Positions 6,134-63,545 of a stretch of DNA of 64,000 nt are shown in pieces. Every line of letters begins with the position of its first letter. Within the stretch, counting starts at the first letter, position 1. This DNA is from Patescibacteria group bacterium (GTDB lineage Bacteria > Patescibacteriota > Microgenomatia > 0-14-0-10-38-17). The notes beneath the pieces were generated by a model. That model was given only the letters and a program-made list of their open reading frames with translations, did no database searches and was not told the DNA's origin. The DNA is taken from the NCBI GenBank assembly GCA_050953885.1, contig JBMNNJ010000001.1:74132-138131 (forward strand), written 5' to 3'. Both the position numbers and the translations under genes were made by a program.

Positions 6134-6204
6134 TTAAGAAAATTTTTTTTGGGGGGAGCAAATCTAATTTTTTAAAACCTGTCTTTTTAGTCTTGAAACC
6201 AGAG

Positions 6205-24958: not shown

Positions 24959-24959
24959 A

Positions 24960-32659: not shown

Positions 32660-32707
32660 CTTTTATCTTGCTTGTCTTTTTTAAATAATTGTTGTATTTT
32701 AAGATTA

Positions 32708-33877
32708 ATGGTTAAAGAAAAAGCCGTCGTTATCATCCCTACTTATAACGAACGGGAAAACATTGGTCGGATGATTGAAGTTTTGGAAAAAGAAATTTTC
32801 CCGCAGATTAAGGATTGGGAAATGGCCATTTTGGTGGTCGATGACCATTCTCCCGACGGCACGGCCGAGATTGTGCGGGAGAAAATGAAAATTTATCCCA
32901 ACATTGAGCTTTCCTTAGGAGAAAAGCAGGGTTTGGGAGCGGCTTACGCGCGGGGGATGAAATACGCGATGCAAAAAATGAATGCCGATTGGGTGATTGA
33001 GTTTGACGCCGATTTTCAGCACGATCCGGCCTATATTCCTCAGCTTTTAAACGCCGCTAGGCAAGGCTACGATTATGTAGTTGGTTCCCGTTATGTTTCC
33101 GGCGGCAAGGTTCCGCAGGATTGGAATTTTTCCCGCCGCCTCATTAGCTCGTTGGGCAGTTTTGTCGCCCGTTTTATTCTTTTTTTTCCTTTTGAGTTTA
33201 GAAACGCCCCGCGCGATTTAACTTCCGGCCTTAAGGCCACCAAAGTTAAAGGATTTTTGGAGAAAATTGATTTAGACCATCTTCTTTCCAAAGGCTACGC
33301 TTATAAAATTGAGATTTTTTACCGGATGGTAAAGCTGGGAGCAAGGGTAAAAGAGATCCCCATTGAATTTAAAAATCGAGAGAAGGGGGAGTCAAAAATG
33401 CCACCCAAGAATTTAACTGATTCTTTAAAAGTGGTGATAAAATTGCGTCTTCAAGACGAGAAAACGCAAAGCTTTTTAAAATTCGCGGTGGTGGGATTTG
33501 TGGGTTACTTGGTTAACGCTCTTTCTTTGGCGCTTTTTACTTCTTTTTCCTGGCCAGAAGCTCTTTGCTGGCTTTTATCAACCGAGCTGGCGATTATTTC
33601 TAATTTTACCTGGAACAACCTTTGGACTTTTGCTAAAGAAAAGTTTACCAAGCCCTCTTTAGTTTTGAAGAAATTTCTCCAGTTTAACCTTACTTCAGCC
33701 GGAGCCTTAGTTATCCAAACGGTAATGGGTACGCTTTTAACCTCTCTTTTTGGGCCCGAGCATCGCCAGCTTTATCTGCCCCTAATTATTGTTTTTATGG
33801 TTTTGCCATATAACTGGTTGATGTATAATCGGGTAATTTGGAAAGTAGACAAGAAAGGTAAAAAAGAAAAAAAATGA
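32708..33877 (+). CDS. GT2 polyprenol-phosphate sugar synthase (DPM1/GtrB-like) fused to a C-terminal GtrA-like membrane domain
   Basis: VVIIPTYNE ... VVDDHSPDGT ... FDADFQHDP, then FLKFAVVGFVGYLVN ... NFTWNNLWTF. Confidence 0.85.
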   Translation: MVKEKAVVIIPTYNERENIGRMIEVLEKEIFPQIKDWEMAILVVDDHSPDGTAEIVREKMKIYPNIELSLGEKQGLGAAYARGMKYAMQKMNADWVIEFDADFQHDPAYIPQLLNAARQGYDYVVGSRYVSGGKVPQDWNFSRRLISSLGSFVARFILFFPFEFRNAPRDLTSGLKATKVKGFLEKIDLDHLLSKGYAYKIEIFYRMVKLGARVKEIPIEFKNREKGESKMPPKNLTDSLKVVIKLRLQDEKTQSFLKFAVVGFVGYLVNALSLALFTSFSWPEALCWLLSTELAIISNFTWNNLWTFAKEKFTKPSLVLKKFLQFNLTSAGALVIQTVMGTLLTSLFGPEHRQLYLPLIIVFMVLPYNWLMYNRVIWKVDKKGKKEKK

Positions 33878-37524: not shown

Positions 37525-37760
37525 AGCTTAAAGTTGTTTTTTTAGATTTAAGTTTTGAATTGTTGTTTTGATCTGCCAGCTGGCGGATTGAGTTGTAGTT
37601 TTAAGTTTTGCGATTTAACATTTGAGTTTATTTTTTGTTTTTGAACTTTAATTTAGGTTCTAATCTTTTCCGCCAGCTGGCGGGTTGATATTTGATTTTT
37701 GTATTTTTTTAATACTGATTTTCATCAGGACAACAGTTGCGTTTTGTCCGTAGTCCAACC
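37441..37760. repeat. AT-rich element (reverse-complement copy of 50645-50710) plus ccgccagctggcgg palindromes
   Basis: gatctgccagctggcggattgag and ttccgccagctggcgggttg. Confidence 0.7.
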
Positions 37761-37863: not shown

Positions 37864-38631
37864 ATGAATAAGAAAGAGGCGGCGATTTTTCTTTCGGTGG
37901 TGATTCCTTGCTATAACGAGGAGGCAAATTTAAAAAGAGGGGTTTTGGGGGAAGTTAACGACTATCTTCAAAAACAAAAATATTCTTGGGAGGTAATCAT
38001 CTCCGATGATGGCTCAACTGATAAAAGCAAGGATTTAGCCGAAAAATTTGCGAAAAGTAATCAGGGCTTTAGGCTTTTGAAAAATCAGCATGGCGGCAAG
38101 CCCTACGCTGTTTGGCAGGGAATTAAGAAGGCGCGGGGACAAATTGTTTTGTTTACCGACATGGATCAGTCCACCCCCATTAGGGAAATAGAAAAGCTTT
38201 TGCCTTATTTTAAGAAAAACTACGACGTAGTGATCGGTTCAAGAGGCTGGAAACGAACCGGCGCCCCTTTCTATCGGCAAATAGCGGCTTTTATTTTCTT
38301 GCAAGTGCGCCGTCTCCTGCTTTTACCGGAAATTATCGACACCCAATGCGGTTTTAAGGCTTTTAAAACTAAAGTGGCTCAAGAGCTTTTTTCCAAACTT
38401 TCGGTTTTGAAAAATTGGCAGGAAGCTTCCGGCTGGCGGGTAACCGCTTTTGATGTAGAGCTTTTGTTTTTGGCCAAGAAAAAGGGCTACCGGATTAAAG
38501 AAGTGCCGGTTTTGTGGCGCGATGAGGATGTGGCTTTGGGAAAAAATAAAAGTTTTGTCAAAGAATCGCGACAAATGCTGGAGCAGATTATAAACGTGCG
38601 TCGTCAGGAACGGCGGGGGGAATACGAATAG
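37864..38631 (+). CDS. GT2 glycosyltransferase, polyprenol-phosphate sugar synthase-like (DPM1/ArnC-like)
   Basis: LSVVIPCYNEE ... ISDDGSTD ... FTDMDQS. Confidence 0.85.
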   Translation: MNKKEAAIFLSVVIPCYNEEANLKRGVLGEVNDYLQKQKYSWEVIISDDGSTDKSKDLAEKFAKSNQGFRLLKNQHGGKPYAVWQGIKKARGQIVLFTDMDQSTPIREIEKLLPYFKKNYDVVIGSRGWKRTGAPFYRQIAAFIFLQVRRLLLLPEIIDTQCGFKAFKTKVAQELFSKLSVLKNWQEASGWRVTAFDVELLFLAKKKGYRIKEVPVLWRDEDVALGKNKSFVKESRQMLEQIINVRRQERRGEYE

Positions 38632-38668: not shown

Positions 38669-40180
38669 ATGAAAAAAAACTCCCCGTTTCTGGTTTTAAA
38701 AAAGGCCTTTAAGCCTTACCAAAAACTAATTTTTCTGGTTCTTCTTTTGCTTTTTCTTCTCACCCGTTTTTCAAACCTTAAGGCATTGCCAATCTTTTGC
38801 GATGAGGCAATTTATATTCGCTGGGCGCAAATTGCCGATGAAAATCATGATCATCTTTTTATTTCCCTCACTGACGGCAAACCCCCCTTACATATTTGGG
38901 CAATGATTCCTTTCTTAAGAATTTTTAGCGATCCGTTGGTGGCGGGACGGATTACCTCCGGTTTAGCCGGCCTGTTGCTTTTCTTGATTTTTTCTCTAAC
39001 CGCTTTTTTCTTTTTTAAAAAACCCATTTTCCCTCTTTTGGCGGGATTGTTAATTGTTTTTACTCCTTATTTGCTTTTTTTTGACCGGATGGCTTTGGCG
39101 GAATCAATTTTAACCTGTTTTGCCGCCGGCTCTTTTTTACTGGCTTTTCTTTTAGGCCGCTACCCACGCTTCTTTTTGGCCGTTCTTTCCGGTGGTTGGT
39201 TAGGGCTGGCGCTTTTGGTTAAATCCCAAGCCTTTTTTTTCCTGCTACTCTTTCCTTTAGGAATAATTTTTACTTTAAAAGAAAAAGACAGAAAGAAACT
39301 TAAGAAATTTTTACTGCTTCTTTTGCCGGTTTTTGTCCTTTCTTTAGGAATTTACAATCTTCAGCGTGTTTCTCCTTATATGAGCTTAATTGCCCAAAAA
39401 AGCCAAACTTTTACCGTTCCCTTAAAAGAAGCCTTAGCCGACTTTAACCGTTTGTTTTCTAATTTAAAAACAGCTTTAAGCTGGTTTTGGCAGTATTTAA
39501 CGCCGCCGTTGTTTTTAACCTCTCTCCTGGGTTTAGGCTGGCTTTTGAAGAAAAATTGGCGTCAAGGGGTTTTTCTGACCGCCTGGATTTTAGCACCTCT
39601 TTTGGGAGCCTCCTTAATTGCCCAAGTTTTTACCTCTCGGTATTTGGCTTTTTTGAGTCCATTTTTTCTTTTGGGGACGGTTTATTTTTTTGGCCAGCTC
39701 TGGCAAAAAATTCCCCAAAAGCATTTTATCCTTTTAATAATTCTTATTTTGGCCTTGCCCGTTTGGCGTTCTTACCAGCTTATTTTTACTCCCCAGAATT
39801 TTCCTTTCTTGAAAAGTGATCGAGGGTATCTTGAGGACTGGACTGCTGGCTTTGGGATTGAGGAAACGGTGGAGCAAATTAAAGAAGCGCGTCAGGAGGG
39901 ATTACCGGTATTAGTCGGTACCGAAGGCTTTTTTGGCCTTCTTTCCCAGGGATTAGAAATTTATTTTGCCGACGATCCCAAAGTAGAAATTGTTGGTTTT
40001 TATCCTCTTCCTGAAAAATTGCCTCCTGCCGATTGGTTAGAAAAGACAAAAGAAAAAAAAGTTTTTTTTGTGGTTAATAACACTCCGGGGGATTTTAGCA
40101 ATGACCACTTTATTTTAAGAAGCGAATATTCTAAAATTAACAATACTGGTTCCCTGCGACTATATGAAGTGGTGGAATAA
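38669..40180 (+). CDS. ArnT/PMT-like GT-C membrane glycosyltransferase
   Basis: CDEAIYIRWAQ ... DGKPPLHIW N-terminal loop; 11-13 TM helices. Confidence 0.6.
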   Translation: MKKNSPFLVLKKAFKPYQKLIFLVLLLLFLLTRFSNLKALPIFCDEAIYIRWAQIADENHDHLFISLTDGKPPLHIWAMIPFLRIFSDPLVAGRITSGLAGLLLFLIFSLTAFFFFKKPIFPLLAGLLIVFTPYLLFFDRMALAESILTCFAAGSFLLAFLLGRYPRFFLAVLSGGWLGLALLVKSQAFFFLLLFPLGIIFTLKEKDRKKLKKFLLLLLPVFVLSLGIYNLQRVSPYMSLIAQKSQTFTVPLKEALADFNRLFSNLKTALSWFWQYLTPPLFLTSLLGLGWLLKKNWRQGVFLTAWILAPLLGASLIAQVFTSRYLAFLSPFFLLGTVYFFGQLWQKIPQKHFILLIILILALPVWRSYQLIFTPQNFPFLKSDRGYLEDWTAGFGIEETVEQIKEARQEGLPVLVGTEGFFGLLSQGLEIYFADDPKVEIVGFYPLPEKLPPADWLEKTKEKKVFFVVNNTPGDFSNDHFILRSEYSKINNTGSLRLYEVVE

Positions 40181-41849
40181 AATTTTAAAACACCAGAATC
40201 TTATTTTGGCCCTCTTATTTTTGGCGGCCAATATTCTTCTTTTGCTGCCTGTTTTGGGCAAGAACCAATTTTTTCCTTCTCATGATGACACCTGGATTAT
40301 CCGCCTCCAGCAGTTTGACCGAGCGATTAAATTGGGGCAGATCCCGCCGCGATTGGCTCCTGATATGGCCTTTGGGTTTGGCTATCCGATTTTTGTTTAT
40401 TACGCACCTCTTTTTACTTTCCTTTCCTGGATTTTTTTGAAAATTGTTGGTTCTTATTCTTTGGCGGTGGTTTTAACAATTATTTTCGTTAATTTCTTGG
40501 GGACTTGGGGGATGTTTCTTTTAGCCAAAAAATTTTTTGGCACAAAGGGAGGGGTTATTGCCGCTTTGGCCTTTATCTTTCTTCCTTATCGGGCTTTGGA
40601 TATTTATGTGCGGGGAGCCTTGGCCGAACTGGCCGCTCTTTCTTTCTTGCCGTTTTTTTTCTATTTTTTCTTCGGCCTTTTTGAGGGAAAAGAAAGAAAG
40701 AAAAATGCTTTAGGGCTTATTTTAGCCACCGTTGGCCTTCTTCTTTCTCATAACCTAATGATAATTATTTTCGCCTATCTTTTTTTGCCGTTTTTAATTT
40801 TGGCCTTTTGGCAGTTATTCCACCATCGTCTTCCCTGGCGCTGGCCAATTTTGGTTGTCTTTCTTGTTCTATTTTTAAGCGCCTTTTATTGGTTACCCAT
40901 GATAACCGGTCTGGATAATGTTCAGGCCGTTAGTCAGGCGCAAAAAACTTTTTTTGCCGACCATTTTGTTTATCTTCGTCAGCTTTGGGATTGGCCTTGG
41001 GGCTTCGGCGGTTCTGATGCTGGCTTAAGCGATGGGATGTCTTTTAAAATTGGTAAGGCTCATTTACTTTTGGCCTTGGGGGGATTGGTGGCTTTATTTT
41101 TGGCTAAAAAATGGCAAAAAGAATTTGCCTGCTTGCTTATCTTGGGTCTTTTCTCTTTGTTTTTTAGTCTTTCTTATTCATCCTTTTTTTGGGAAAACCT
41201 GCCTTATCTGGCGGTAGTTCAATTTCCGTGGCGTTTCTTAGGGCCCCTAAGTTTGGCAGTCTCTTTTTTTAGTGGAGCGATTGTTTTTTTTCCACAGCTA
41301 AGATTTTTTTCAAGCTGGCCAAGAACGGTTAAGACCGCCGGGATGGCGGCGATTGTTTTGGCAAGCGCCTTAGGATTGGTTTATTTTAACTTAAAATACT
41401 TTACCCCCCGTTTTAAGATTTACCAAGCCGACGAAGCTTATTTAACAGCGGAGAAAATTAGTCAGGCGGCAAAGGTGATTCCGGAATATTTACCTTTCTG
41501 GGCCAGCGTTTGGCCGGAGGAAAAACCGGCACAGGCGGTTGAGACAGAAGAGGGGAAGACGGAAATTTCTCTTGATTCTCCTTATAAAATCACTTTTCGG
41601 GTTGAGGGAAAAAAAGAAGAGGAGATTATTGTCAATCGTTTTTATTTCCCCGGTTGGCAAGCCAAAAGTGCTTCGGAGGAGAAAATAATTCTTGAACCAG
41701 AAAAAGAGAAGGGAAGAATTGTTTTAACTTCCAAAGTTGGCGAAAACGAAGAAATTACTCTTTTTTTTGCCCCCACTTTGGTGGAAAAAATAGGGATTGC
41801 TTTTTCGATTTTGGGATTAATACTTTTATTAGTGGTGGTTTTTTATTAA
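40164..41849 (+). CDS. large polytopic membrane protein, GT-C-like (YfhO-like?), family shared with 50729 C-terminal half and 60372
   Basis: FPSHDDTWIIRL ... IPPRLAP ... GFGYPIFVYYAPLF and C-terminal FYFPGWQA. Confidence 0.5.
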   Translation: MKWWNKILKHQNLILALLFLAANILLLLPVLGKNQFFPSHDDTWIIRLQQFDRAIKLGQIPPRLAPDMAFGFGYPIFVYYAPLFTFLSWIFLKIVGSYSLAVVLTIIFVNFLGTWGMFLLAKKFFGTKGGVIAALAFIFLPYRALDIYVRGALAELAALSFLPFFFYFFFGLFEGKERKKNALGLILATVGLLLSHNLMIIIFAYLFLPFLILAFWQLFHHRLPWRWPILVVFLVLFLSAFYWLPMITGLDNVQAVSQAQKTFFADHFVYLRQLWDWPWGFGGSDAGLSDGMSFKIGKAHLLLALGGLVALFLAKKWQKEFACLLILGLFSLFFSLSYSSFFWENLPYLAVVQFPWRFLGPLSLAVSFFSGAIVFFPQLRFFSSWPRTVKTAGMAAIVLASALGLVYFNLKYFTPRFKIYQADEAYLTAEKISQAAKVIPEYLPFWASVWPEEKPAQAVETEEGKTEISLDSPYKITFRVEGKKEEEIIVNRFYFPGWQAKSASEEKIILEPEKEKGRIVLTSKVGENEEITLFFAPTLVEKIGIAFSILGLILLLVVVFY

Positions 41850-42024: not shown

Positions 42025-43482
42025 ATGAATAAAAATAGACGGCTTTTCTTTCTTGCTTTTTTGGGGGTGGCGGCTATTTTTCTGCTAATTTACCACGGTG
42101 CCTTAGATAACTATTTTTTTCAGGATGATTTTTATTTCTTGCGTCTTTCCCGCGCGGAAAGTTTTCTTGACTTTCTTAAATTTTTTAGCCCCTGGCACCA
42201 GCAGGGCTTTCCTGCTTATCGGCCCTTAGGCACTCAAGTTTATTTTTTCTTTGGCCAGCTTTTTCCCGCTTTTGCCTCGCCGTATATTATGCGCGGGATT
42301 TTATTTCTATTTCATTTTTTTAACTTTTTTCTTATTTTTAAAATTTTAAAAAAACTTCTTAAGAAAGATTGGTTGGCTTTAATTTTAGCCGCCCTTTATT
42401 TAAACGCGCCGCTTCATTTTTTAAGCCTTTATTATCTGGCTGCTTTCCAGCAGGTTTTGGCGGCCTTTTTCCAGCTTTTAGGCTTTTATCTTTATCTTAA
42501 AAACAAGAAAAAAGCAGTTTATTTTTGTTATTTAGGAGCGCTTTTGGCAAAAGAAACCGCCATTTTTTTTCCCGCTCTTTTGCTTATTTTTAAGACGCTT
42601 GTCTATTTTGACAAAAATAAGAGTTTTAAAAATATTAAAAGCGAGATTGGGGGGGAAAAACGCTATTGGCTTGGTTTCGTTTTTTTAGCTTTTGCCTACG
42701 CTTTGTTGCGATTATTGTCTTTTTCCCAGCCTCCGGGTGAGGAATACCGACTTTCTTTAACGCCAAAAACCTTCTTTTCTTCTCTGCGTTGGTATTTAAT
42801 TTGGCTCTTGGGAGCGCCGGAGACAATCATTAATTATGCTCAAGGAGGGATTAATTTTTCGGTAGCTAAATTTACTAATGATGCGGGGATTTCGGCCTAT
42901 TTTTTTGGCGGGCTCTTTTTAGCAGAGTTTATCGTTCTTTGTTTAATTTTAATAAATTTAGGCCGCAAAAAGAAAGGCCGCCGGCAGGTAGCTCTTTTTT
43001 TGCTTTTAGGGCTGGCGGCGATGATAATTTCTTTGGCTTCGGTAATTTTTATGCCCTATCACCGCTTTGCCCACTACCTTGATCTTGCTCTATTTTTATT
43101 TTTAGTTATTTTTGGGCTTCTTGTCAAGAGGGAAAAAGGACTAACGCTAACTTTAGCTTTTGTTTTTACTTTTTTGTTCTTAGCGAACGCTTTCTTTTGT
43201 GTTAGAATTGACGAGAAACTTCATTGGGCGCCGGCCCGCCCGAGAATAGCGGCAAAATACCAAGAATTTTTTAAGGATGAAGGGGTTTGCGATAAGAGGC
43301 AGGGAATTTATTTTATTGATGCCAAGTCTAATTCAGCAAAAGAAGTCGCCATCGCTCTCTCGTTTGCTGATGGCCCCCGCTATTTTTGTCAGAATTACGA
43401 TTTACCGGTTTTTTATCAGGGGTTAGTCGAACCAAACGAGAAAGAAAAGCAACAACTTTTAATAATTAGCAGCGGCAACTAA
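42025..43482 (+). CDS. polytopic membrane protein, probable GT-C glycosyltransferase
   Basis: FQDDFYFL and YRPLG motifs in the first loops. Confidence 0.4.
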   Translation: MNKNRRLFFLAFLGVAAIFLLIYHGALDNYFFQDDFYFLRLSRAESFLDFLKFFSPWHQQGFPAYRPLGTQVYFFFGQLFPAFASPYIMRGILFLFHFFNFFLIFKILKKLLKKDWLALILAALYLNAPLHFLSLYYLAAFQQVLAAFFQLLGFYLYLKNKKKAVYFCYLGALLAKETAIFFPALLLIFKTLVYFDKNKSFKNIKSEIGGEKRYWLGFVFLAFAYALLRLLSFSQPPGEEYRLSLTPKTFFSSLRWYLIWLLGAPETIINYAQGGINFSVAKFTNDAGISAYFFGGLFLAEFIVLCLILINLGRKKKGRRQVALFLLLGLAAMIISLASVIFMPYHRFAHYLDLALFLFLVIFGLLVKREKGLTLTLAFVFTFLFLANAFFCVRIDEKLHWAPARPRIAAKYQEFFKDEGVCDKRQGIYFIDAKSNSAKEVAIALSFADGPRYFCQNYDLPVFYQGLVEPNEKEKQQLLIISSGN

Positions 43483-43495: not shown

Positions 43496-44995
43496 ATGGT
43501 TAAAAAAGAAAACGCTGATCAGGTTAAAGGGAGAGCGGTGAGGGGAACGCTTACCCTCACGGCGCGGCGGATTATTCTTAAGGGGATTGACCTTTTGGGG
43601 ATGATTTTTTTGGCCCGGCTTTTAACGCAGGAAGAGTTTGGTATTTTCGGGATTATTAACTTTATTGTTTTTACTCTTTTTGGCTTTTTGTCGGATATTG
43701 GCTTGGGCGCTTCTTTGATTCAAAAAAAGGAAAAGATTAAAAAAGACGATTTGGCAACCGTTTTCACCACTCAGTTGGTTTTAGTTTTAGTTTTAAATCT
43801 TTTGGTTTGGTTGCTTTCTCCTTATTTAGTAAAGGTTTATAATCTTTCCCCGGCCCATATTTGGCTTTTGCGAACGACGGCTTTCTGCCTAATTTTAACT
43901 TCTTTCAAAACAATTCCCTCGGTTTTACTGGAAAGGGAGCTTTTGTATGAGAAACTTTTAATTCCCGAAATAGCGGAAACTATTTCTTATAATATTTTGG
44001 CGGTTTTTTTGGCCTTTCGCGGCTTTGGGGTTTGGAGTTTAACCATTTCTCTTTTGGTGCGGACTTTTTTAGGGGCCCTTATTTTATTCTTTATTTCTCC
44101 TTGGCCAATTCGCCTAAAAATCAAGCGCGCTTCGCTTAAAAATCTTCTTTCTTTTGGGGTGCCTTATCAGCTTAATTCCTTTCTGTCGCTTTTAAAGGAT
44201 AATCTTACCCCCACCGTGATTGCCTTCTTTTATGGGCCGGCGGCGGTGGGATATGTTAATTTGGCGCAAAGTATTGCTTTTAAGCCGATGGAAATTACCA
44301 ACATTGTTAATCGCTTGGTTTTTCCCATTTTTTCCAAAATTCAAGATGATCGTGATCGGGTGGGCAGATGGTTGGAAAAAGGAGTACGGCTAATGGCCTA
44401 TTTATATTTCCCTCTTGTTTTGGGGCTTTTGGTTACCGCTCGACCAATTTTGACCTATATTTATGCCGACCGTTCCGATAAATGGCTGCCGGCATTATCT
44501 GCCCTTTATCCTTTTCTTTTAGGATCGTTGCCGGTGGTTTTTACCACCACCGCCACTAATGTAATTTACGCCTTAGGCCAAGCCAAAACTGTTTTAAGAG
44601 TAATGGTAATTTATACTTTAATTACGTGGGGAGTGGGCATTCCTTTAATTTTAAAAATTGGTTTTTCGGGTATTGCCTGGGCGAATGTGGTGGTGGGAAT
44701 TGTTAGCGTTATTTTAATCAATCATGAACTTAAAAAGGCAAAAATAAATTTTTCTCTTACGAAGGCTGTTGCTATCCCTTTTTTTTCTTCTCTTCTGATG
44801 GCTCTTTTTCTTTTACCAGCCGTCGCTTGGGTTAAAGGCATTCCCAGTCTTATAGGGATTGTTTTTCTTGGGGCATTTCTTTATTTTCTTTTTCTTTTCC
44901 TTTTTCTTCGGGGTAAAATAAAGGAAGAAGTTGCTTTAGTAAAAAGCCTTTTACCAAAATATGAAAGAAGTAAAGCCACAAAAGAGGAAAGATAA
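43496..44995 (+). CDS. Wzx-like oligosaccharide flippase (MOP superfamily polysaccharide biosynthesis protein)
   Basis: About 12 TM helices with a characteristic N-terminal region (ARLLTQEEFGIF). Confidence 0.75.
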   Translation: MVKKENADQVKGRAVRGTLTLTARRIILKGIDLLGMIFLARLLTQEEFGIFGIINFIVFTLFGFLSDIGLGASLIQKKEKIKKDDLATVFTTQLVLVLVLNLLVWLLSPYLVKVYNLSPAHIWLLRTTAFCLILTSFKTIPSVLLERELLYEKLLIPEIAETISYNILAVFLAFRGFGVWSLTISLLVRTFLGALILFFISPWPIRLKIKRASLKNLLSFGVPYQLNSFLSLLKDNLTPTVIAFFYGPAAVGYVNLAQSIAFKPMEITNIVNRLVFPIFSKIQDDRDRVGRWLEKGVRLMAYLYFPLVLGLLVTARPILTYIYADRSDKWLPALSALYPFLLGSLPVVFTTTATNVIYALGQAKTVLRVMVIYTLITWGVGIPLILKIGFSGIAWANVVVGIVSVILINHELKKAKINFSLTKAVAIPFFSSLLMALFLLPAVAWVKGIPSLIGIVFLGAFLYFLFLFLFLRGKIKEEVALVKSLLPKYERSKATKEER

Positions 44996-50399: not shown

Positions 50400-50710
50400 A
50401 CAATCTAAATGCAAAGCGCGATCCGCCAGCTGGCGGACAGGATCTACCGTTCTTTAGACATTAATAACGATTCTGAATCAAGTTCAGAATGACGCTAATC
50501 GTAACCGTCATCCTGACGAAAGTCAGGATCTTTCCTTGTCATTAACACAGATTCCGGATCAAGTCCGGAATGACGGTTTCCGAGTTCGTCATTCTGACGA
50601 ATTCGCCAGCGGGCGGATTAAACTTTAAAAAGTTTTAACATTTACCATGTAGTTTTGCCATTTGACATTTGCGTTTTGAGATTTGAGTTTGTTTTTCGTG
50701 TCCATTCGTT
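50400..50710. repeat. composite intergenic repeat cluster (palindrome, three hairpin modules, AT-rich element)
   Basis: gatccgccagctggcggacaggatc; gattctgaatcaagttcagaatgacg; catcctgacgaaagtcaggat; gattccggatcaagtccggaatgacgg. Confidence 0.8.
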
Positions 50711-50728: not shown

Positions 50729-53323
50729 ATGTCTTTTAGCAATGAAACAATGAAGCAGTCTAAGCCTCTTTTATCAATCATCATCGTTTCCTACAACACC
50801 CGGGAGCTTTTGGAAAAATGCCTTAACTCCGTGGTTAAATCATTAGCCGGCTCTAATCTTAAAAGCAACCAAGAAAAGATCCTGAACCAAGTTCAGGATG
50901 ACGCTAATCGCAACCGTCATCCTGACGATCCGCCAGCTGGCGGACAGGATCTGCCCTTGACCGAAATCATCGTTGTTGATAATAATTCCCGCGACGATTC
51001 GGTAGAAATGCTTCAAAATTTAAAATTGAAACTTGAAAATTCATTGAAAATTCAAAACTTAAAATTGAAAATTATTGTTAATAACGATAATCTTGGCTTT
51101 GCCAAGGCGGTTAATCAGGGAATTAAGAAAAGCCGAGGAGAATACTTGCTTCTTTTGAATTCCGACACGATTGTTCCTCCTCAAACTTTAGAAAAAATGA
51201 TTGAATTTGCCAGAAAGAAAAAAGACGCGGGCATTATTGCCCCCAAACTCTTAGATAAAAATGGAAAAACCTCCCAACCTTCCTGCTACCGTTTGCCGGC
51301 AATTAAGGGAGCCGTTAAAGAATTTTGGTTAGGGGAAAAAGGTGCTTTTGGAAAATATCTTCCCCGTGGCGGCAATCCGGTTAAGCCAGAAGCGGTGGTA
51401 GGGGCGGCGATGCTTATTCCCCGAGCCGTTTATGATGTGGTGGGCGAGTTTGACGAAAAATATTTTATGTATTATGAGGATTTAGACTATTGCCGCCGTG
51501 TTAGAGAAGCGGGATTTGCGGTTTATTATTTACCAACCGCTAAGATTATTCATTATCATGGTCAAAGCGGCCAAAAAGAGCCTCAAAAAGTTAATCGCCA
51601 TCTTATTGAAAGCAGTAAAAAATATCATGGCCGCCTAAAACATTTTTTCTTAAATGCCATCATTCGCCTTGGTCAGGCTAAAAAGTTTTTGCCGCTTATC
51701 CTTTTGGTTTTGGCAATGTTGGTCTGGTCGGTTCATCATTTATATTTTTTAAAACCTGCTTTTCCAAAAACCCATGATGGCCATTTTCACCTTATTCGTT
51801 TAGCTGAATTTGACCGATCTTTCAAAGCAGGTATTATTCCCCCTCGCTGGGCACCGGGTTTGGCCAATGGTTTGGGAGCGCCAGTTTTTAATTATTTTTA
51901 TCCCTTGGTTTATTACCTGGGAGAAGGATTTCATCTTTTGGGCTTTTCTTTTGCTTCCTCTCTTAAATTGGTGGCCGCTCTTTCTTGCTTTGCGGCTTTT
52001 TTCTTTAGCTTTCTTTTCTTTAAACTTTTTTTTGCTACCCTATCAAGTTTCTTGGGGGCAAGTTTAGTGGTTTATGCTCCCTACAGCTTTCTTAATCTTT
52101 TTGTGCGCGGAGAATTTCCAGAAATTTTGGCCCTTTGCCTTTTACCGGCAATTTTCTGGGCCACCACCAAGGCGGTTTTAAATAAAGAAAAAAACCGCCA
52201 TTTTCTTTTAGCCGCTCTTCCTTGGGCGTTGATAATTTTATCCCACAATATTATTGCCCTGCTAGCTACTGTCTGGTTGATAATTTTTTTATTTTTAGTT
52301 TTAATCAGGGATAGAAAAGCCGCTAAAAAAACAATTTTTATTTTTTTGTTATCGCTTGCTTTAAGCGCCTTTTTTTGGATACCGGCATTGGGAGAAATGA
52401 AATATGTTCATCTGGGTTATGATGAAGTTTTTTCCTGGTGGGACCATTTTCCCACTCTTAGGCAGTTAATTTATTCTCCTTGGGGGCATGGTTATTCTTA
52501 TCCGGGACAAAGCGATGAAATGTCTTTTCAAATTGGCTTACCCCATCTTTTTCTTTCCCTATCGGCAGGGATACTTCTTTTAATCCAGCTTTTCAAAGAC
52601 AAGAAAAATTTTTGGAAAAGCTGGAAAAATCTAGCCATTTTTTTCTTTGCCTTTTCTTCTTTTACCTTTATCTTTTTAATGAATCACCGCTCTTCTTTTT
52701 TCTGGCAAACGCTTCCTTTTCTTTCCCGGGTCCAGTTTCCGTGGCGGTTTTTGGGATTTTTAAATTTTTCTCTTTGTTTCTTAATTACTTTTTTCTTAGA
52801 ACAGCTTTTATCTTTTTCAAAAGAAAAAATCGCCTTGCCAGTTATTTTTCTTATTTTTATCGGAACATTTTTTGCTTATTTTGGTTATATCCGGCCGGAA
52901 AGTTATCTTACTCAAGAAGTAATCTTTAATTCAAATGAAGTGCGGGAAACCACTACCAATGCCAATGAAATTTTACCGATTTGGGCGCCAAAAGATAGTT
53001 ATCAAAATATTAATTTAACCAATACAATAGAGTGTAAAGAGTTTTCCTGCGAAACATCAACTGCCTTTAACCAAGAAAAAGAAGTTATTTTCAGAAAATT
53101 TTATTTTCCTTCTTGGCAGGGAAAAATTGATGACTTTCCTTTAAGGCTTTATCCTCAAGAAAAAACAGGCTTGATAGCCGCGCTGGTTCCGGCCGGAAAT
53201 CATCAGGTTAGGATAGAGTGGGGGAAAACTAATCTTGAAAGGGCGGCCGATTATATCAGTCTTGCTTCGCTTGTCTTTTTGTTTTCTTTTATTACGATCT
53301 TTAAAAAGAAAAAATTAACTTGA
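50729..53323 (+). CDS. fusion protein: N-terminal GT2 domain plus C-terminal large GT-C-like polytopic membrane domain (YfhO-like family)
   Basis: LSIIIVSYNTRE ... VVDNNSRDDS ... YYEDLDYCRR, then FPKTHDGHFHLIRL ... IPPRWAP ... GAPVFNYFYPLVYY and C-terminal FYFPSWQG. Confidence 0.8.
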   Translation: MSFSNETMKQSKPLLSIIIVSYNTRELLEKCLNSVVKSLAGSNLKSNQEKILNQVQDDANRNRHPDDPPAGGQDLPLTEIIVVDNNSRDDSVEMLQNLKLKLENSLKIQNLKLKIIVNNDNLGFAKAVNQGIKKSRGEYLLLLNSDTIVPPQTLEKMIEFARKKKDAGIIAPKLLDKNGKTSQPSCYRLPAIKGAVKEFWLGEKGAFGKYLPRGGNPVKPEAVVGAAMLIPRAVYDVVGEFDEKYFMYYEDLDYCRRVREAGFAVYYLPTAKIIHYHGQSGQKEPQKVNRHLIESSKKYHGRLKHFFLNAIIRLGQAKKFLPLILLVLAMLVWSVHHLYFLKPAFPKTHDGHFHLIRLAEFDRSFKAGIIPPRWAPGLANGLGAPVFNYFYPLVYYLGEGFHLLGFSFASSLKLVAALSCFAAFFFSFLFFKLFFATLSSFLGASLVVYAPYSFLNLFVRGEFPEILALCLLPAIFWATTKAVLNKEKNRHFLLAALPWALIILSHNIIALLATVWLIIFLFLVLIRDRKAAKKTIFIFLLSLALSAFFWIPALGEMKYVHLGYDEVFSWWDHFPTLRQLIYSPWGHGYSYPGQSDEMSFQIGLPHLFLSLSAGILLLIQLFKDKKNFWKSWKNLAIFFFAFSSFTFIFLMNHRSSFFWQTLPFLSRVQFPWRFLGFLNFSLCFLITFFLEQLLSFSKEKIALPVIFLIFIGTFFAYFGYIRPESYLTQEVIFNSNEVRETTTNANEILPIWAPKDSYQNINLTNTIECKEFSCETSTAFNQEKEVIFRKFYFPSWQGKIDDFPLRLYPQEKTGLIAALVPAGNHQVRIEWGKTNLERAADYISLASLVFLFSFITIFKKKKLT
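50878..50951 (+). repeat. 74-75 bp hairpin repeat element inserted in-frame inside the GT2 domain of the 50729 gene (encodes KILNQVQDDANRNRHPDDPPAGGQD)
   Basis: Near-identical to intergenic copies at 50468-50545 and 53400-53545: gatcctgaaccaagttcaggatgacgctaatcgcaaccgtcatcctgacgatccgccagctggcggacaggatc. Confidence 0.8.
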
Positions 53324-53369
53324 GTTATATCCAAATCTTTATGGCAAAACGTAATTTTGCCTCTTGGCC

Positions 53370-53620
53370 CCGTATAATTTTGGTACGGGACTTGACGAGT
53401 TCGTCATCCTGACGAAAGTCAGGATCTGCCTTTGGCATTAACACAGATTCCGGATCAAGTCCGGAATGACGGTTTCCGAGTTTGTCGTTCTGACTCCTCT
53501 TACCGTCATTCTGACAATCCGCCAGCTGGCGGACAGGATCTGCCTCTTTCTGACGATAAGGCAGATTATAAGACAGATTCTGAATTAAATTCAGCATGAC
53601 GACCAGGGGATTATTTATGT
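53370..53620. repeat. composite repeat cluster (same modules as 50400-50640)
   Basis: The 90-aa minus-strand ORF here is simply a translation of the repeats. Confidence 0.8.
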
Positions 53621-56728: not shown

Positions 56729-57505
56729 ATGACTCTTTCCGTTGCTTTAGCCACCTATAATGAGGAGAAAAATTTGCCTTCTTGCCTTGAAGCGGTGAAA
56801 GATTGGGTAGAGGAGATTGTTGTTGTTGACGGTTCCTCAACGGACAAAACGCGGGAAATTGCCCAAAAATATGGAGCGCGGGTGATTAAAACCACCAACA
56901 AACCGATTTTCCATATTAACAAGCAAATGGCCATTGACGCCTGCCGCGGCGACTGGATTCTTCAGTTAGACGCTGATGAAATTGTGGAACCGGCCTTGAA
57001 AAAAGAAATTTTGGCCGTAATTAAAAAGGGCAGTGACTTTGACGCTTTTTCCCTACCCCGTAAAAACTTTTTTTTGGGCCGTTGGCTTTCAAAAGGGGGG
57101 CAGTATCCCGACACGGTGATCAGATTTTTCAAAAAAGGTAAGGCCTTTTTGCCCTGCCAATCGGTTCATGAACAAATGATGGTTCCATCGGGAAAAATAG
57201 GCAATCTTTCCGGTCATCTTCTCCATTATCCCTATCCAAGTTTTAATGAATATTTGGTAAAATTTAACCGTTATACCGATTTAACCGCCGCAGAATATCT
57301 TAAAAACCCAAAAATAAAACCAAATTTTTGGTATTATTTAAAATCGGAAGCGCAAGGAACAGGGGCATTTTTAGCCCGCTACCTACGCCACAAAGGCTTT
57401 GTTGATGGCTTTGCGGGTTTTGTTTTCGCTCTTTTTTCAGGTCTTCATTATCCGGTGGCGTTTATTAAGTATTGGGAAAAAAGATATGAAAGAAAAAAAG
57501 ACTAA
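56729..57505 (+). CDS. GT2 glycosyltransferase (GGQYPD subfamily)
   Basis: LSVALATYNEE ... LQLDADE ... GGQYPDTVIRFF. Confidence 0.8.
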   Translation: MTLSVALATYNEEKNLPSCLEAVKDWVEEIVVVDGSSTDKTREIAQKYGARVIKTTNKPIFHINKQMAIDACRGDWILQLDADEIVEPALKKEILAVIKKGSDFDAFSLPRKNFFLGRWLSKGGQYPDTVIRFFKKGKAFLPCQSVHEQMMVPSGKIGNLSGHLLHYPYPSFNEYLVKFNRYTDLTAAEYLKNPKIKPNFWYYLKSEAQGTGAFLARYLRHKGFVDGFAGFVFALFSGLHYPVAFIKYWEKRYERKKD

Positions 57506-60371: not shown

Positions 60372-62117
60372 ATGAAAAAGGAAACATTTTTTTTAAAAAC
60401 CAAAAAAATTCTTCCTGTCATCTTAATTTTGCTTTTAGGAGCTTATTGTTCGAAAGGCCTTTTTACTTATCATTTTTTTAGCACTCATGACGGCGACCAT
60501 CATCTTGCTCGTAGTTATGATGCCGTAAAGACGCTTTCGGAAGGACATTTTCCGCTTCGTTGGGCGGGTAGTTTAAATTATTTCTGCGGGATTCCTATTT
60601 TTAATTTTTTCTACCCCCTTTTTTACTATTTAATTTTTCTGGTTAATCTTTTAGTTGGCGATATTATTTTCTCGCTAAAAATCGTTTATGTTTTAAGCTT
60701 TACGCTTGCTCCTTTGTTTTTTTATCTTTGGCTAAAGAGGGAGACTAAGAACCCCATCGCCTCACTTTTAGGGGCGATACTTTATCTTTTTGTTCCCTAT
60801 CGTTTCTTGCTTGTTTTTGTTCGCTCCAGTCCCGAATTTATGGCTTATACGATTTTACCGGTTTTTTTATATCTTTTAAGTATTTTCTTTGAAAAAATTA
60901 AGAAAAAAGAAAGAAACGCTGCTTACCTTTTTGGCTTTTTAACTTCTCTTTCGGGAGCGGCTTTAATTACCGCTCATCAATTAATAGCCTTTTTGCTCTT
61001 TCCGATTATTTTTTTATGGTTTGTAATAAAAACTTGGCAAACAAAAGTTTACAAGCAAAAAGTTAATTTTTTATGGCTTATTTTTTTAACGGCGGTATCT
61101 ATTGTTGGCTTGAGCGCTTTTTTTTGGGGACCGGTTTTTTTAGAAAAAGGGGAAGTTAAAATCGGAGAGTTGGAGGTTATTAGCTACTGGCAACATTTTC
61201 CTTCTTTAAAACAATTAATTCATTCCCCCTGGGGTTACTTTTATTCCGCTCCCGGTGTTGAAAATGATGGCATGTCTTTTTCCTTAGGTTATGCACAATG
61301 GGCGGTTTTGGGGTTGTCGGGAATTTGGTTGGTAATTAAGGCGGTAAAAACAGGACTTCTTAAAACAATGAGAGAAAATTTTGGAGTGCTATTTTTCTTT
61401 TTAATCTCTGTTTTCGCTCTTTTTCTGATGCTTGAACAATCTAGGTTTGTTTGGGAGCTATTTGTTTTATTGCAAGAAGTTCAGTTTCCTTGGCGTTTTT
61501 TGGGAGTAACCTCTTTTACTATTGCTGCCTTAGGGGGGTTTTGGTTAACACAGATTGGCAACAAAAAAATTGTTTATGCTTTGGCAATATTAATTTCTTT
61601 TTTGGCAATCTATGGTAATCGCAACCATCTTCTCCCCCAACCCTTAGCAGAACCAGAAAGATACGAAGATTTTGAGAGGCTACATCCCCATCGGTATAGC
61701 ACGACTACTCTTGGAGATGATATTCTTAATAGAGAAGCCGAAAAGGCATGTTATTTTGGTGACCCTTTTCTTTTAGTTAATAAAGAAAAAATTGAAAATA
61801 AACTTAATCGGGGCAATACTTTTGGAGAGGTTTACTTTAAATGGCCCCAGCAAGAAGCAAGTGCAACAATTAATCTTAATTTAGAATACTTTCCCGGGAT
61901 CTATAAAATTAAGATCAATGGAGAAGAAATAAAAAAAATCAGCAATTTTTCAGGAAGAATAGCTTTAGAAGAGATTTCTTTAAAAGAAGGGGAAAATGTT
62001 ATTAGCTGGCAAATCGTCCAGTCGCCAATTGAGCGGTTTTTTAATGGTGTTAGCTTGGGTTTTTTAGTCCTTTGGTTGATTTTAATACCAATCTATGAAA
62101 TTAAAAGGAAAGCTTAA
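60372..62117 (+). CDS. large polytopic membrane protein, GT-C-like (YfhO-like family; paralog of 40164 and 50729 C-terminal half)
   Basis: FFSTHDGDHHLARS ... FPLRWAG ... GIPIFNFFYPLFYY. Confidence 0.5.
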   Translation: MKKETFFLKTKKILPVILILLLGAYCSKGLFTYHFFSTHDGDHHLARSYDAVKTLSEGHFPLRWAGSLNYFCGIPIFNFFYPLFYYLIFLVNLLVGDIIFSLKIVYVLSFTLAPLFFYLWLKRETKNPIASLLGAILYLFVPYRFLLVFVRSSPEFMAYTILPVFLYLLSIFFEKIKKKERNAAYLFGFLTSLSGAALITAHQLIAFLLFPIIFLWFVIKTWQTKVYKQKVNFLWLIFLTAVSIVGLSAFFWGPVFLEKGEVKIGELEVISYWQHFPSLKQLIHSPWGYFYSAPGVENDGMSFSLGYAQWAVLGLSGIWLVIKAVKTGLLKTMRENFGVLFFFLISVFALFLMLEQSRFVWELFVLLQEVQFPWRFLGVTSFTIAALGGFWLTQIGNKKIVYALAILISFLAIYGNRNHLLPQPLAEPERYEDFERLHPHRYSTTTLGDDILNREAEKACYFGDPFLLVNKEKIENKLNRGNTFGEVYFKWPQQEASATINLNLEYFPGIYKIKINGEEIKKISNFSGRIALEEISLKEGENVISWQIVQSPIERFFNGVSLGFLVLWLILIPIYEIKRKA

Positions 62118-63459: not shown

Positions 63460-63545
63460 CTGTAACCGCAGTCGTCATTCTAACGATCCGCTCGCTGGCG
63501 GACAGAATCTGTTTTGATTCTGAATCAAATTCAGAATAACGCTCT
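63425..63545. repeat. composite hairpin-module cluster
   Basis: gattctgaatcaagttcagaatgac; gtcgtcattctaacgatccgctcgctggcggacagaatc; gattctgaatcaaattcagaataacg. Confidence 0.75.

What the first reader, a model, noticed from the sequence alone, without database searches (positions are those of the whole stretch)
50729..53323. Rosetta-stone fusion of a cytoplasmic GT2 with a YfhO-like GT-C membrane transferase
Elsewhere in the island GT2 genes and large GT-C membrane proteins are separate neighbours (37864+38669/40164; 56729+57486). Here a GT2 domain is fused N-terminally to a 550-aa polytopic domain. That domain belongs to the paralog family of 40164 and 60372, which share the FxxHDxxxxxR ... 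PPRWAP ... GxPxFNYFYPL loop and a C-terminal FYFP(G/S)WQ motif. The fusion argues that the GT2 makes the lipid-linked sugar donor that this GT-C enzyme transfers outside the membrane. The three-member family (40164, 50729C, 60372) has unclear assignment; I can only say YfhO-like.
Basis: partly seen in the sequence, partly recalled or inferred. Interest (0 to 1): 0.5.

Follow-up and report, generated by a model that had tools for sequence, protein, structure and literature searches.

The report
Fused inside-outside glycosyltransferase, CPR bacterium
One 864-residue gene in an uncultured Microgenomates-type bacterium really does join a cytoplasmic sugar-adding enzyme (GT2) to a membrane-embedded, outward-facing one (GT-C), but the GT2 half looks like a glycan-extending enzyme rather than the maker of the GT-C half's lipid-linked sugar donor, so this is a modest new variant of a known kind of cell-surface glycosylation system.

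Summary

The fused GT2 is of the RfbF/rhamnosyltransferase/GlfT2 type, with an ED.D motif in its acceptor half. It is not the DPM1/GtrB/CsbB type that makes polyprenyl-phosphate sugars. Three GT2 genes of that type sit elsewhere in the island. Of 107 standalone relatives of the GT-C domain, 31 are followed directly by a DPM1-like GT2 and none by the fused type. Orthologues of the fused GT2 also occur alone, tail-anchored, at the same syntenic position.

Most likely the GT2 extends a lipid-linked glycan inside the cell and the GT-C decorates it outside, using donors made by the separate DPM1-like enzymes. Interest is modest.

The parts
50729..53323 (+). Whole fused gene, 864 aa (GT2 + linker TM helix + PF10131-type GT-C). 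The real start is possibly the ATG at 50750.
50768..51580 (+). Cytoplasmic GT2 (GT-A fold) catalytic domain, aa 14-284, of RfbF/rhamnosyltransferase/GlfT2-like type. Conserved residues: D84-N-N-S87, N144-S-D146 (DxD-equivalent) and E250-D-L-D253.
   Evidence: Pfam; NCBIfam; Foldseek top hits WrtF, GalNAc-Ts, RmlT and heparosan synthase; profile against PDB; conservation in A5
50875..50958 (+). In-frame 84-nt insertion of dispersed hairpin-repeat units in the GT2 alpha1-beta2 loop (about aa 49-77). It is absent from the closest orthologue P0001 and longer in P0003. This stretch of the model has low confidence.
51476..51487 (+). E250-D251-L252-D253, within the 'FMYYEDLDYCRR' motif of the acceptor half. 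It is nearly invariant in the GT2 subfamily and typical of GT2s that glycosylate hydroxyl acceptors.
51581..51676 (+). Long juxtamembrane helix (aa 285-316, 'SSKKYHG...IIRLGQ') connecting GT2 to TM1. Inferred to be amphipathic and to lie at the membrane interface.
   Evidence: AF2 secondary structure; conserved in standalone GT2 orthologues
51680..51745 (+). TM1 (aa 318-339). It serves both as the GT2 membrane anchor and as the first helix of the GT-C domain. It corresponds to the C-terminal tail anchor of standalone orthologues P0125 and P0134.
51746..51949 (+). First extracytoplasmic loop (EL1, aa 340-407), carrying the HD motif and 'IPPRWAP...GAPVFNYFYPL'. Invariant D350 (nt 51776-51778) is the candidate catalytic Asp; R373 is also invariant.
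51680..52900 (+). Polytopic GT-C membrane core (aa 318-724), including the conserved 'VQFPWRFLG' motif (P671 and R673 invariant).
52901..53221 (+). Extracytoplasmic beta-sandwich domain (aa 725-831) between the last two TM helices. It contains FYFPSWQ...G.H and shares this module with a CPR YfhO protein.
53231..53317 (+). C-terminal TM helix (aa 835-863).
40164..41849 (+). Standalone PF10131-type GT-C paralogue (31% identical). It lies in an operon-like run after the DPM1-like GT2 37864 and the PMT_2 gene 38669.
60372..62117 (+). Standalone PF10131-type GT-C paralogue (33% identical).
56729..57505 (+). DPM1-like GT2 (258 aa; best NCBIfam hits TIGR04283, AglJ, SunS, dolichyl-phosphate hexose transferase). 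Candidate maker of the polyprenyl-P-sugar donor for the upstream GT-Cs, including the fused one. Its orthologue (73-77% identical) keeps this position in other fused loci.
37864..38631 (+). DPM1/GtrB-like GT2 (best hits PgfS, ArnC, dolichyl-phosphate hexose transferase, AglJ, PpgS).
32672..33877 (+). GT2 fused to a GtrA/DPMS transmembrane domain (DPMS-type polyprenyl-phosphate glycosyltransferase architecture).
43496..44995 (+). Wzx-type flippase (Polysacc_synt_3). Candidate translocase between the cytoplasmic and outer steps.
   Evidence: syntenic in L002
50419..50619 (.). Upstream intergenic array of the same hairpin-repeat units.
53390..53605 (.). Downstream intergenic array of the same hairpin-repeat units. 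The antisense ORF 53325-53597 is a translation of this array.

Best explanation
The gene encodes a genuine bifunctional, two-sided glycosyltransferase of a Microgenomates (Shapirobacteria-like) CPR bacterium.

Shown:
- A cytoplasmic Leloir GT2 of the RfbF/rhamnosyltransferase/GlfT2-like class is joined through a juxtamembrane helix and a single TM helix to a PF10131-type GT-C domain.
- The catalytic loop of the GT-C domain (invariant D350) lies on the outer face.
- In standalone orthologues the TM helix is the GT2's own tail anchor. Its N-in/C-out orientation matches that of GT-C TM1, so the fusion is topologically allowed.

Inferred:
- The GT2 domain uses a nucleotide sugar to extend a polyprenyl-(di)phosphate-linked glycan on the cytoplasmic face. 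dTDP-rhamnose is one candidate, because rmlABCD lie in the window.
- The Wzx-type flippase of the island (43496) moves the intermediate across the membrane.
- The GT-C domain then adds a sugar to that glycan, or to its final acceptor, from a polyprenyl-phosphate monosaccharide donor.
- That donor is made by one of the island's separate DPM1/GtrB-like GT2s, most plausibly 56729, and not by the fused GT2.
- The fusion therefore links an inner 'builder' step with an outer 'decorator' step of one pathway. It does not link donor synthesis with donor use.
For: Architecture and conservation:
- establish the single ORF and its conservation.
- A split form exists with orthologous halves, 44% and 43% identical.

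GT-C fold and active-site conservation:
-.

GT2 class:
- The best NCBIfam hit is rhamnosyltransferase TIGR01556, covering aa 79-308. The ArnC hit covers only aa 79-166.
- Foldseek top hits are glycan- or peptide-acceptor GT-A enzymes: WrtF, GalNAc-Ts, RmlT, heparosan and chondroitin synthases.
- In the profile search against PDB, only GlfT2-type galactofuranosyltransferases and ppGalNAc-Ts align across the acceptor half. DPMS, ArnC and GtrB align to the nucleotide-binding half only.
- Within the window it is closest to 45886 and 49442, not to the DPM1-like 37864, 56729 or 32672.

Donor makers exist separately:
-.

Neighbour profiling:
- 31 of 107 standalone relatives of the GT-C domain have a DPM1-like GT2 within 200 nt downstream on the same strand. 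None has the fused-type GT2.
- Fused loci keep a 56729-type GT2 about 1.8 kb downstream, in a GT-C, GT-C, GT2 order.

Other context:
- Orthologous tail-anchored GT2s stand alone at the same syntenic slot.
- rmlA-D and Wzx are present.
Against: - No biochemical data exist for any member of PF10131 or of this GT2 subfamily.
- The donor, the acceptor and even the lipid carrier are all inferred.
- The same GT2 subfamily is fused to two different kinds of GT-C: PF10131, and PMT_2 in P0321 and probably L030. That recurrence is what one would expect of a donor-supplying enzyme.
- All GT-A comparisons have low identity (14-20%), and the Foldseek E-values differ little between classes.
- No initiating phosphoglycosyltransferase was found in the window.
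- Adjacency of DPM1-like GT2s to standalone relatives is evidence by association only.
Confidence: 0.45

Rival explanations
1. Oligosaccharide-donor model, a relaxed form of the reader's idea. The fused GT2 performs a late cytoplasmic step that completes a polyprenyl-P- or polyprenyl-PP-linked oligosaccharide. After flipping, the fused GT-C domain uses that very oligosaccharide as its donor, acting as a polymerase, ligase or oligosaccharyltransferase. This would resemble lactococcal WpsC followed by WpsH/WpsJ.
For: - There is precedent for GT-C enzymes using lipid-linked oligosaccharides that were elongated by cytoplasmic GTs and flipped by a Wzx-type protein (PMC10821137).
- The GT2 subfamily is repeatedly fused to GT-C domains of two families.
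- A Wzx gene lies in the island.
Against: - Standalone relatives of the GT-C domain are typically followed by a DPM1-like GT2, which points to monosaccharide-phosphate donors for this family.
- Orthologous GT2s function without the GT-C at the same locus.
Confidence: 0.25
2. The fused GT2 is the CsbB/GtrB-equivalent enzyme that makes a polyprenyl-phosphate monosaccharide, which the fused GT-C (YfhO-equivalent) transfers outside the membrane.
For: - GT2 plus GT-C pairing is the rule in three-component systems such as CsbB/YfhO (PMC5836110).
- Both a split form and a fusion exist.
- The GT2 is held at the membrane by a juxtamembrane helix and a TM helix.
- The subfamily is fused recurrently to two GT-C families.
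- The best single-sequence PDB hit is DPMS 5mlz, but only over aa 79-196.
Against: - The acceptor half is RfbF/GlfT2-like with an ED.D motif. Matches to ArnC, DPMS and GtrB stop at the nucleotide-binding half.
- There is no GtrB-type 2-TM or GtrA-like domain.
- Three true DPM1/GtrB-like GT2s are present in the island.
- Standalone GT-C relatives pair with DPM1-like GT2s and never with this type.
- Orthologous GT2s occur without the GT-C.
Confidence: 0.12
3. Near-neutral fusion of neighbouring genes. A tail-anchored GT2 and the GT-C gene downstream of it merged through loss of a short overlapping stop/start region. The two activities serve the same crowded glycan island but have no direct substrate relationship.
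For: - Gene overlaps of 11-28 nt between this GT2 and downstream GT-C genes are common (L001, L084, L003).
- The fusion partner varies: PF10131 or PMT_2.
- The fused and unfused states alternate among related genomes at one syntenic slot.
Against: - The fusion has been kept across lineages, with identity falling to 31-51% and a conserved junction. This argues for selection.
- Operon adjacency itself usually reflects a shared pathway.
Confidence: 0.12
4. Artefact: a frameshift, a masked stop or an assembly chimera joins two separate genes.
For: None found.
Against: The ORF is uninterrupted. Identical architecture with a conserved junction occurs in at least 13 independently assembled clusters and in 5 species-representative genomes.
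Confidence: 0.01

Closest known systems
CsbB/YfhO (B. subtilis), GtlA/GtlB (Listeria), GacI/J/K/L (S. pyogenes): multi-component transmembrane glycosylation systems
   Same: A cytoplasmic GT2 and a polytopic GT-C are encoded together. The GT-C has about 13 TM helices, a conserved Asp in the first outer loop and an extracytoplasmic domain between the last two TM helices. A Wzx-type flippase is present in the cluster.
   Different: Here the two are one polypeptide. The GT2 is not of the GtrB/CsbB/GacI (DPM1-like) class. The GT-C falls in PF10131, not PF09586. Its outer domain is about 110 aa rather than about 390 aa.
Mycobacterial arabinogalactan pathway (WbbL/GlfT1/GlfT2 inside; AftA/AftD/Emb GT-Cs outside, using decaprenyl-P-arabinose)
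   Different: In mycobacteria these are separate proteins. Sequence identity is only 9-14%. The glycan of the CPR organism is unknown.
Lactococcal PSP pathway (WpsA/B, WpsC, WpsG, WpsH, WpsJ; PMC10821137)
   Same: Cytoplasmic GTs elongate a lipid-linked sugar, a Wzx-type flippase moves it, and GT-C enzymes polymerise or transfer it. This is a rhamnose-related context.
   Different: No fusion is described there between an elongating GT and a GT-C; the only fusion mentioned is GacJ-GacI. No orthology was shown here.
Pfam PF10131 PTPS_related (GT-C clan CL0111, function unknown)
   Same: The C-terminal domain and both paralogues hit this model. Most homologues carry it in precomputed annotation. 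The clan assignment and 'function unknown' status come from PMC7801869.
   Different: The score sits exactly at the gathering threshold (26.4). The family has no characterised member, so membership says nothing about substrate.
Oligosaccharyltransferases AglB/STT3/PglB
   Different: There is no sequence-level match. The C-terminal soluble domain is a small beta-sandwich. The 'SWWDHFP' string lies in a loop between TM helices, and its WW is not conserved across the wider family.

Membership tests
GT2 / GT-A fold Leloir glycosyltransferase (PF00535) | Significant match to the family model above its curated cut-off | tested here: met
   PF00535 scores 88.3 bits against a cut-off of 23.3; PF13641 scores 55.5 against 27
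GT2 / GT-A fold Leloir glycosyltransferase (PF00535) | Conserved nucleotide-sugar and metal-binding acidic motifs (D in beta2, DxD-equivalent) and a GT-A fold | tested here: met
   D84, N144-S-D146 and E250-D251-x-D253 are invariant or nearly invariant in A5. Foldseek matches GT-A enzymes at E 1e-8.
Polyprenyl-phosphate glycosyltransferases (DPM1/GtrB/CsbB/ArnC/GacI type) | The whole catalytic domain, acceptor half included, is homologous to DPM1-like models | tested here: not met
   The ArnC NF007986 hit covers only aa 79-166 (E 8e-5), and no hit to a dolichyl-phosphate transferase model was listed; PgfS matched only weakly (NF047588, E 2.5e-4, aa 79-163). DPMS, ArnC and GtrB structures align only to profile positions 1-125. 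By contrast, ORF 37864 hits PgfS, ArnC, dolichyl-phosphate hexose transferase, AglJ and PpgS.
Polyprenyl-phosphate glycosyltransferases (DPM1/GtrB/CsbB/ArnC/GacI type) | C-terminal 2-4 TM helices or a GtrA-like domain, or a small membrane partner | tested here: not met
   There is only one TM helix, shared with the GT-C domain. ORF 32672 in the same window does have the GtrA_DPMS_TM domain.
Polyprenyl-phosphate glycosyltransferases (DPM1/GtrB/CsbB/ArnC/GacI type) | Transfer of a sugar from an NDP-sugar to polyprenyl phosphate | not testable with these tools
   This needs an in vitro assay.
GT-C fold glycosyltransferases | Polytopic membrane fold shared with solved GT-C enzymes | tested here: met
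GT-C fold glycosyltransferases | Conserved acidic residue in the first extracytoplasmic loop after TM1 | tested here: met
   D350 is invariant in 91 sequences and lies about 10 residues after TM1. With a cytoplasmic GT2 at the N-terminus, the topology places EL1 outside.
GT-C fold glycosyltransferases | Use of a polyprenyl-phosphate-linked donor | not testable with these tools
   Only indirect evidence exists: 31 of 107 standalone relatives are followed by a DPM1-like GT2.
Pfam PF10131 PTPS_related | Score at or above the gathering threshold | tested here: met
   26.4 bits against 26.4, exactly at threshold. Paralogue 60372 scores 29.3 and 40164 scores 26.0. Many homologues carry PF10131.
YfhO family (PF09586) | Match to the YfhO model | tested here: not met
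   The window protein gives no PF09586 hit at E<=1. Some homologues about 30% identical to it, and the double GT-C P0243, hit both PF10131 and PF09586.
YfhO family (PF09586) | About 13 TM helices with a large extracytoplasmic domain between the last two TM helices | tested here: inconclusive
   The layout is the same, but the domain is about 110 aa rather than about 389 aa. Only the C-terminal YxPGW...G.H module aligns with a CPR YfhO (E 3e-4).
Oligosaccharyltransferase (STT3/AglB/PglB) | WWDYG motif in the C-terminal soluble domain; sequence-level homology | tested here: not met
   No sequence match to any PDB chain. 'SWWDHFP' lies in an inter-TM loop, and its WW is not conserved in the wider family.

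The most novel reading that the evidence does not exclude
The RfbF-like GT2 subfamily found here is tail-anchored and carries the KEFWLG, FMY(F/Y)EDLDYCRR and SSKIYHG motifs. It is fused repeatedly to two different GT-C families. It could be a previously unrecognised class of polyprenyl-phosphate (or lipid-primer) glycosyltransferase that feeds its own fused GT-C. The protein would then be a self-contained inside-to-outside glycosylation machine, possibly with the GT-C membrane domain helping to translocate the lipid intermediate.
Probability: 0.1. Interest if true: 0.7.

Novelty: new variant of a known kind. Interest (0 to 1): 0.35.

Why it matters
CPR/Patescibacteria genomes devote very large islands to GT-C enzymes; this one has at least nine GT-C genes in 28 kb. 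The products of these islands are unknown, and no PF10131 member has been characterised. A conserved fusion, a natural split form and the neighbour statistics together give testable assignments. The PF10131 GT-Cs probably use polyprenyl-P-monosaccharides made by adjacent DPM1-like GT2s. The fused GT2 marks which cytoplasmic glycan-building step is coupled to one of the outer steps. The single polypeptide is also a convenient construct for expression or cryo-EM of an inner and an outer step together. It does not change the general picture of bacterial transmembrane glycosylation.

Tried and rejected
- Sequence searches of the C-terminal domain against PDB found nothing, either as a single sequence or as a 107-sequence profile. 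The fold comparison was needed instead.
- Foldseek with the full-length model returned only GT-A hits in the top 50. The GT-C domain therefore had to be modelled separately. That construct was cut at aa 331, inside TM1, so TM1 is truncated in that model.
- The AFDB50 library was not available, so fused proteins in UniProt/AFDB could not be listed.
- Literature searches for PF10131, for CPR plus GT-C, and for GT2/GT-C fusions found no description of this architecture. The library lacks most subscription journals.
- Several loci looked like distant fusions in the genome scan (L055, L069, L074). On inspection they were adjacent or nearby separate genes, and their GT2s were mostly DPM1-like.
- The idea of a hidden frameshift in the split form L001 was rejected. 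Read as a single ORF, it would have two consecutive TM helices and therefore the wrong topology for EL1.
- No initiating phosphoglycosyltransferase and no separate GtrA-only flippase was found in the window.
- Rfam gave no family for the hairpin repeats.
Full report
**1. The observation**

The window holds an uninterrupted ORF at 50729..53323 (+), ATG start, 864 aa. Pfam places a GT2 domain at the N-terminus: PF00535 at aa 16-171 (E 7e-25) and PF13641 at aa 78-281. PF10131 'PTPS_related' covers aa 387-734 at 26.4 bits, exactly its gathering score.

The C-terminal domain is 33% identical to ORF 60372 (E 2e-57) and 31% to ORF 40164 (E 2.5e-48). It has no significant similarity to the PMT_2-type GT-C genes of the island. 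The FYFP(G/S)WQ motif is degenerate in 60372.

**2. The fusion is not an artefact**

I searched the 5.8-billion-protein collection with the C-terminal domain. The 14 best clusters are at least 48% identical and 817-903 aa long, apart from two partial entries (P0004, 671 aa; P0011, 730 aa). They are named Shapirobacteria, Microgenomates or Patescibacteria where a name is given, and all carry GT2 Pfam domains. Identity then drops sharply to about 35% for standalone proteins of 535-590 aa.

In the alignment of the fused clade, both halves and the junction are conserved. Five GTDB species representatives carry the fused gene in a single frame. A search of 1.84 billion cluster representatives adds more distant fused proteins of the same architecture: P0241 (39% identical), P0242 (34%), P0245 (36%) and P0249 (31%).

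One member of the clade is naturally split. In L001 a 298-aa GT2, 44% identical to the fused N-domain, overlaps a 566-aa GT-C gene by 11 nt. Each of the two proteins has its own TM helix.

**3. The C-terminal domain**

AlphaFold2 models are confident. The full-length model has pLDDT 86.1 and pTM 0.78. The C-terminal domain modelled alone has pLDDT 94.8 and pTM 0.93.

The layout is as follows.
- TM1 spans aa 318-339.
- The first outer loop follows and carries D350, which is invariant in 91 sequences.
- About 13 helices come next.
- A beta-sandwich of about 110 aa lies between the last two TM helices.
- A final TM helix closes the protein.

This is the layout described for YfhO (PMC5836110). However, the window protein gives no PF09586 hit. 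Against a CPR YfhO protein, only the C-terminal YxPGW...G.H module aligns (E 3e-4). PF10131 belongs to the GT-C clan and has no known function (PMC7801869). 'YfhO-like' is therefore fair at clan level, but the family is PF10131.

**4. The GT2 domain is not of the donor-making class**

- NCBIfam's best hit is rhamnosyltransferase TIGR01556 (E 7.5e-20, aa 79-308), followed by MftF, EpsD, HpsN and others. The ArnC hit covers only aa 79-166.
- The neighbour GT2 37864 hits PgfS, ArnC, dolichyl-phosphate hexose transferase, AglJ and PpgS. ORF 56729 hits AglJ and dolichyl-phosphate types. ORF 32672 is a GT2 fused to a GtrA/DPMS TM domain.
- Within the window, the fused GT2 is closest to 45886 (E 4e-26) and 49442 (E 4e-15). 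It is far from 37864 (3e-7), 56729 (2e-4) and 32672 (0.13).
- Foldseek places it nearest to WrtF, an O-polysaccharide fucosyltransferase (PMC12595478). After that come GalNAc-Ts, Listeria RmlT, and heparosan and chondroitin synthases.
- A 44-sequence profile of the subfamily aligns to DPMS, ArnC and GtrB only over the nucleotide-binding half. The only structures aligned across the acceptor half, with its nearly invariant E250-D-x-D253, are galactofuranosyltransferases (including GlfT2) and ppGalNAc-Ts.

From general knowledge of GT2 enzymes, this ED.D region supplies the catalytic base for hydroxyl acceptors.

**5. Phylogenetic profiling**

The GT2 subfamily is very common as a standalone protein of 260-320 aa in Microgenomates, at 44-57% identity. 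The closest standalone orthologues are P0125 (56%) and P0134 (48%). Both end in a single TM helix, a tail anchor.

They occupy the same syntenic slot as the fusion. This slot comes after a 49442-like GT2 and before a PIG-V-like GT-C, a PMT_2 GT-C and a 258-aa GT2. No PF10131 domain is attached to them. The fused loci L002, L003 and L087 have the fusion in that slot.

The same subfamily is also fused to a PMT_2-type GT-C in P0321. L030 carries a similar fusion to a non-PF10131 membrane domain whose family was not determined.

Across 80 species-representative loci I found 107 standalone relatives of the GT-C domain. Of these, 31 have a DPM1-like GT2 within 200 nt downstream on the same strand and 1 has one upstream. 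None has the fused-type GT2. In fused loci a 56729-type GT2 (73-77% identical) lies about 1.8 kb downstream, in a GT-C, GT-C, GT2 order.

**6. Context**

The window also encodes:
- rmlA (21765), rmlB (25624), rmlC (26641) and rmlD (27195);
- a UDP-glucose dehydrogenase (31364);
- a Wzx-type flippase (43496);
- several GT2 and GT4 genes;
- at least nine GT-C genes between 35962 and 63459.

No initiating phosphoglycosyltransferase was detected.

**7. Explanation**

Shown: the protein is a conserved fusion of a cytoplasmic, tail-anchored GT2 of RfbF/GlfT2 type with a PF10131 GT-C. The anchor helix doubles as GT-C TM1. This is topologically allowed because both run N-in to C-out.

Inferred (confidence about 0.45): the GT2 extends a lipid-linked glycan inside the cell and Wzx flips it. 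The GT-C then decorates it outside, using a polyprenyl-P-monosaccharide made by a separate DPM1-like GT2. The fusion thus couples an inner builder to an outer decorator.

Rivals:
- The GT2 completes a lipid-linked oligosaccharide that the GT-C then uses as its donor, as in lactococcal WpsC followed by WpsH/J (PMC10821137). Confidence about 0.25.
Confidence about 0.12.
- A near-neutral merger of overlapping neighbour genes. Confidence about 0.12.
- An artefact. Confidence about 0.01.

The recurrent fusion of this GT2 subfamily to two GT-C families is the main observation that keeps the donor-type models alive.

**8. Novelty and score**

I found no paper describing this architecture in the searchable library. 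Databases label these proteins simply 'GT2 family glycosyltransferase'. This is a new variant of a known kind of system, multi-component transmembrane glycosylation, and not a new principle. Interest is 0.35.

**9. Seen in passing**

The GT2 coding sequence carries an in-frame 84-nt insertion at 50875-50958. It is made of the same hairpin-repeat units that form arrays just upstream (50419-50619) and downstream (53390-53605) of the gene, and that recur in at least eight other intergenic spots. As RNA it folds with dG -42 kcal/mol (z -6.7). It maps to a low-confidence loop of the model. It is absent from the 89%-identical orthologue P0001 and longer in P0003.

Noticed in passing
window 50875-50958 (inside the GT2 coding sequence, aa ~49-77): An in-frame 84-nt insertion is built from two dispersed hairpin-repeat units and encodes 'KILNQVQDDANRNRHPDDPPAGGQDLP'. 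It sits in the alpha1-beta2 loop of the GT2 domain. It folds strongly as RNA (dG -42.1 kcal/mol, z -6.65) and lies in a low-pLDDT stretch of the model. It is absent from the closest orthologue P0001 and about twice as long in P0003, so it appears to be a polymorphic, tolerated MITE-like insertion within a protein-coding gene.
   Followed up: partly
window 1605, 3985, 24093-24280, 25147, 35705, 37570-37686, 50419-50619, 53390-53605, 63438-63502: A family of short palindromic repeat units (e.g. GATCCGCCAGCTGGCGGA, TTCTGAATCAAGTTCAGAATGAC, TCCGGATCAAGTCCGGAATGAC) is scattered through intergenic regions. There are 22, 4 and 3 matches respectively, against 0 expected by chance. The fused gene is bracketed by two arrays of them. 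No Rfam family matches.
   Followed up: partly
window 53325-53597 (-): The 90-aa antisense ORF ('MLNLIQNL...RHSGLDPES...FRQDDE') is a translation of the downstream hairpin-repeat array and is very probably not a gene.
   Followed up: partly
window 21765-28085 and 31364-33877: A complete dTDP-L-rhamnose pathway is present: rmlA 21765, rmlB 25624, rmlC 26641, rmlD 27195. There is also a UDP-glucose dehydrogenase (31364) and a GT2 fused to a GtrA/DPMS transmembrane domain (32672). All lie upstream of the GT island and may supply its sugars and lipid-linked donors.
   Followed up: partly
window 35962-63459: The density of GT-C genes is exceptional: nine in about 28 kb. They are PMT_2 types at 35962, 38669, 53718, 57399 and 62095; PF10131 types at 40164, 50729C and 60372; and a PIG-V/GT87-like gene at 55366. 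They are interleaved with GT2, GT4, methyltransferase and Wzx genes. The order is largely syntenic in L002, L003, L084, L085 and L087.
   Followed up: partly
window 42025-43482 (+); L002 694-2133: A 485-aa ORF with no convincing Pfam family (only a sub-threshold CitMHS match, E 0.005) sits between the PF10131 GT-C 40164 and the Wzx flippase. L002 has a 479-aa no-Pfam gene in the same position (sequence similarity not checked). It could be a Wzy-like polymerase; in L003 a 500-aa gene (5657-7159), in a different gene context, gives a weak Wzy_C hit.
   Followed up: no
P0321 (760 aa); L030 6783-7993: The same GT2 subfamily is fused N-terminally to a different kind of GT-C in other Patescibacteria. 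In P0321 the partner is PMT_2 PF13231 (E 2.8e-10). In L030 the GT2, 42% identical, runs without a stop into a non-PF10131 membrane domain.
   Followed up: partly
P0243 (1093 aa), P0244 (1116 aa), P0246 (3329 aa), P0254 (2119 aa): There are other unusual architectures among relatives. One is a tandem double GT-C protein that hits both PF10131 (9e-30) and YfhO PF09586 (1.8e-17), which shows that the two Pfam families overlap. Others are very long proteins with several matched stretches, including repeated GT2-type segments.
   Followed up: no
window 52436-52456 (aa 570-576, 'WWDHFPT'): The fused clade has an invariant W570 and a nearly invariant W571 before the family-wide DHFP motif. This gives a string reminiscent of the oligosaccharyltransferase WWDYG motif. 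However, it lies in a loop between TM helices and the WW is not conserved in the wider family, so the resemblance is probably coincidental.
   Followed up: no
loci L007-L009, L012, L015-L017 and many others: Many MAG records that carry these typically Patescibacteria gene clusters are titled 'uncultured Gammaproteobacteria bacterium' (TPA assemblies). This looks like a placeholder or a wrong taxonomic label.
   Followed up: no
window 50729 vs 50750: The ORF's first ATG gives a 7-residue N-terminal extension (MSFSNET) that is absent from most orthologues. Those start at MKQSKPLL or MLLSIII, so the true start may be the ATG at 50750.
   Followed up: no
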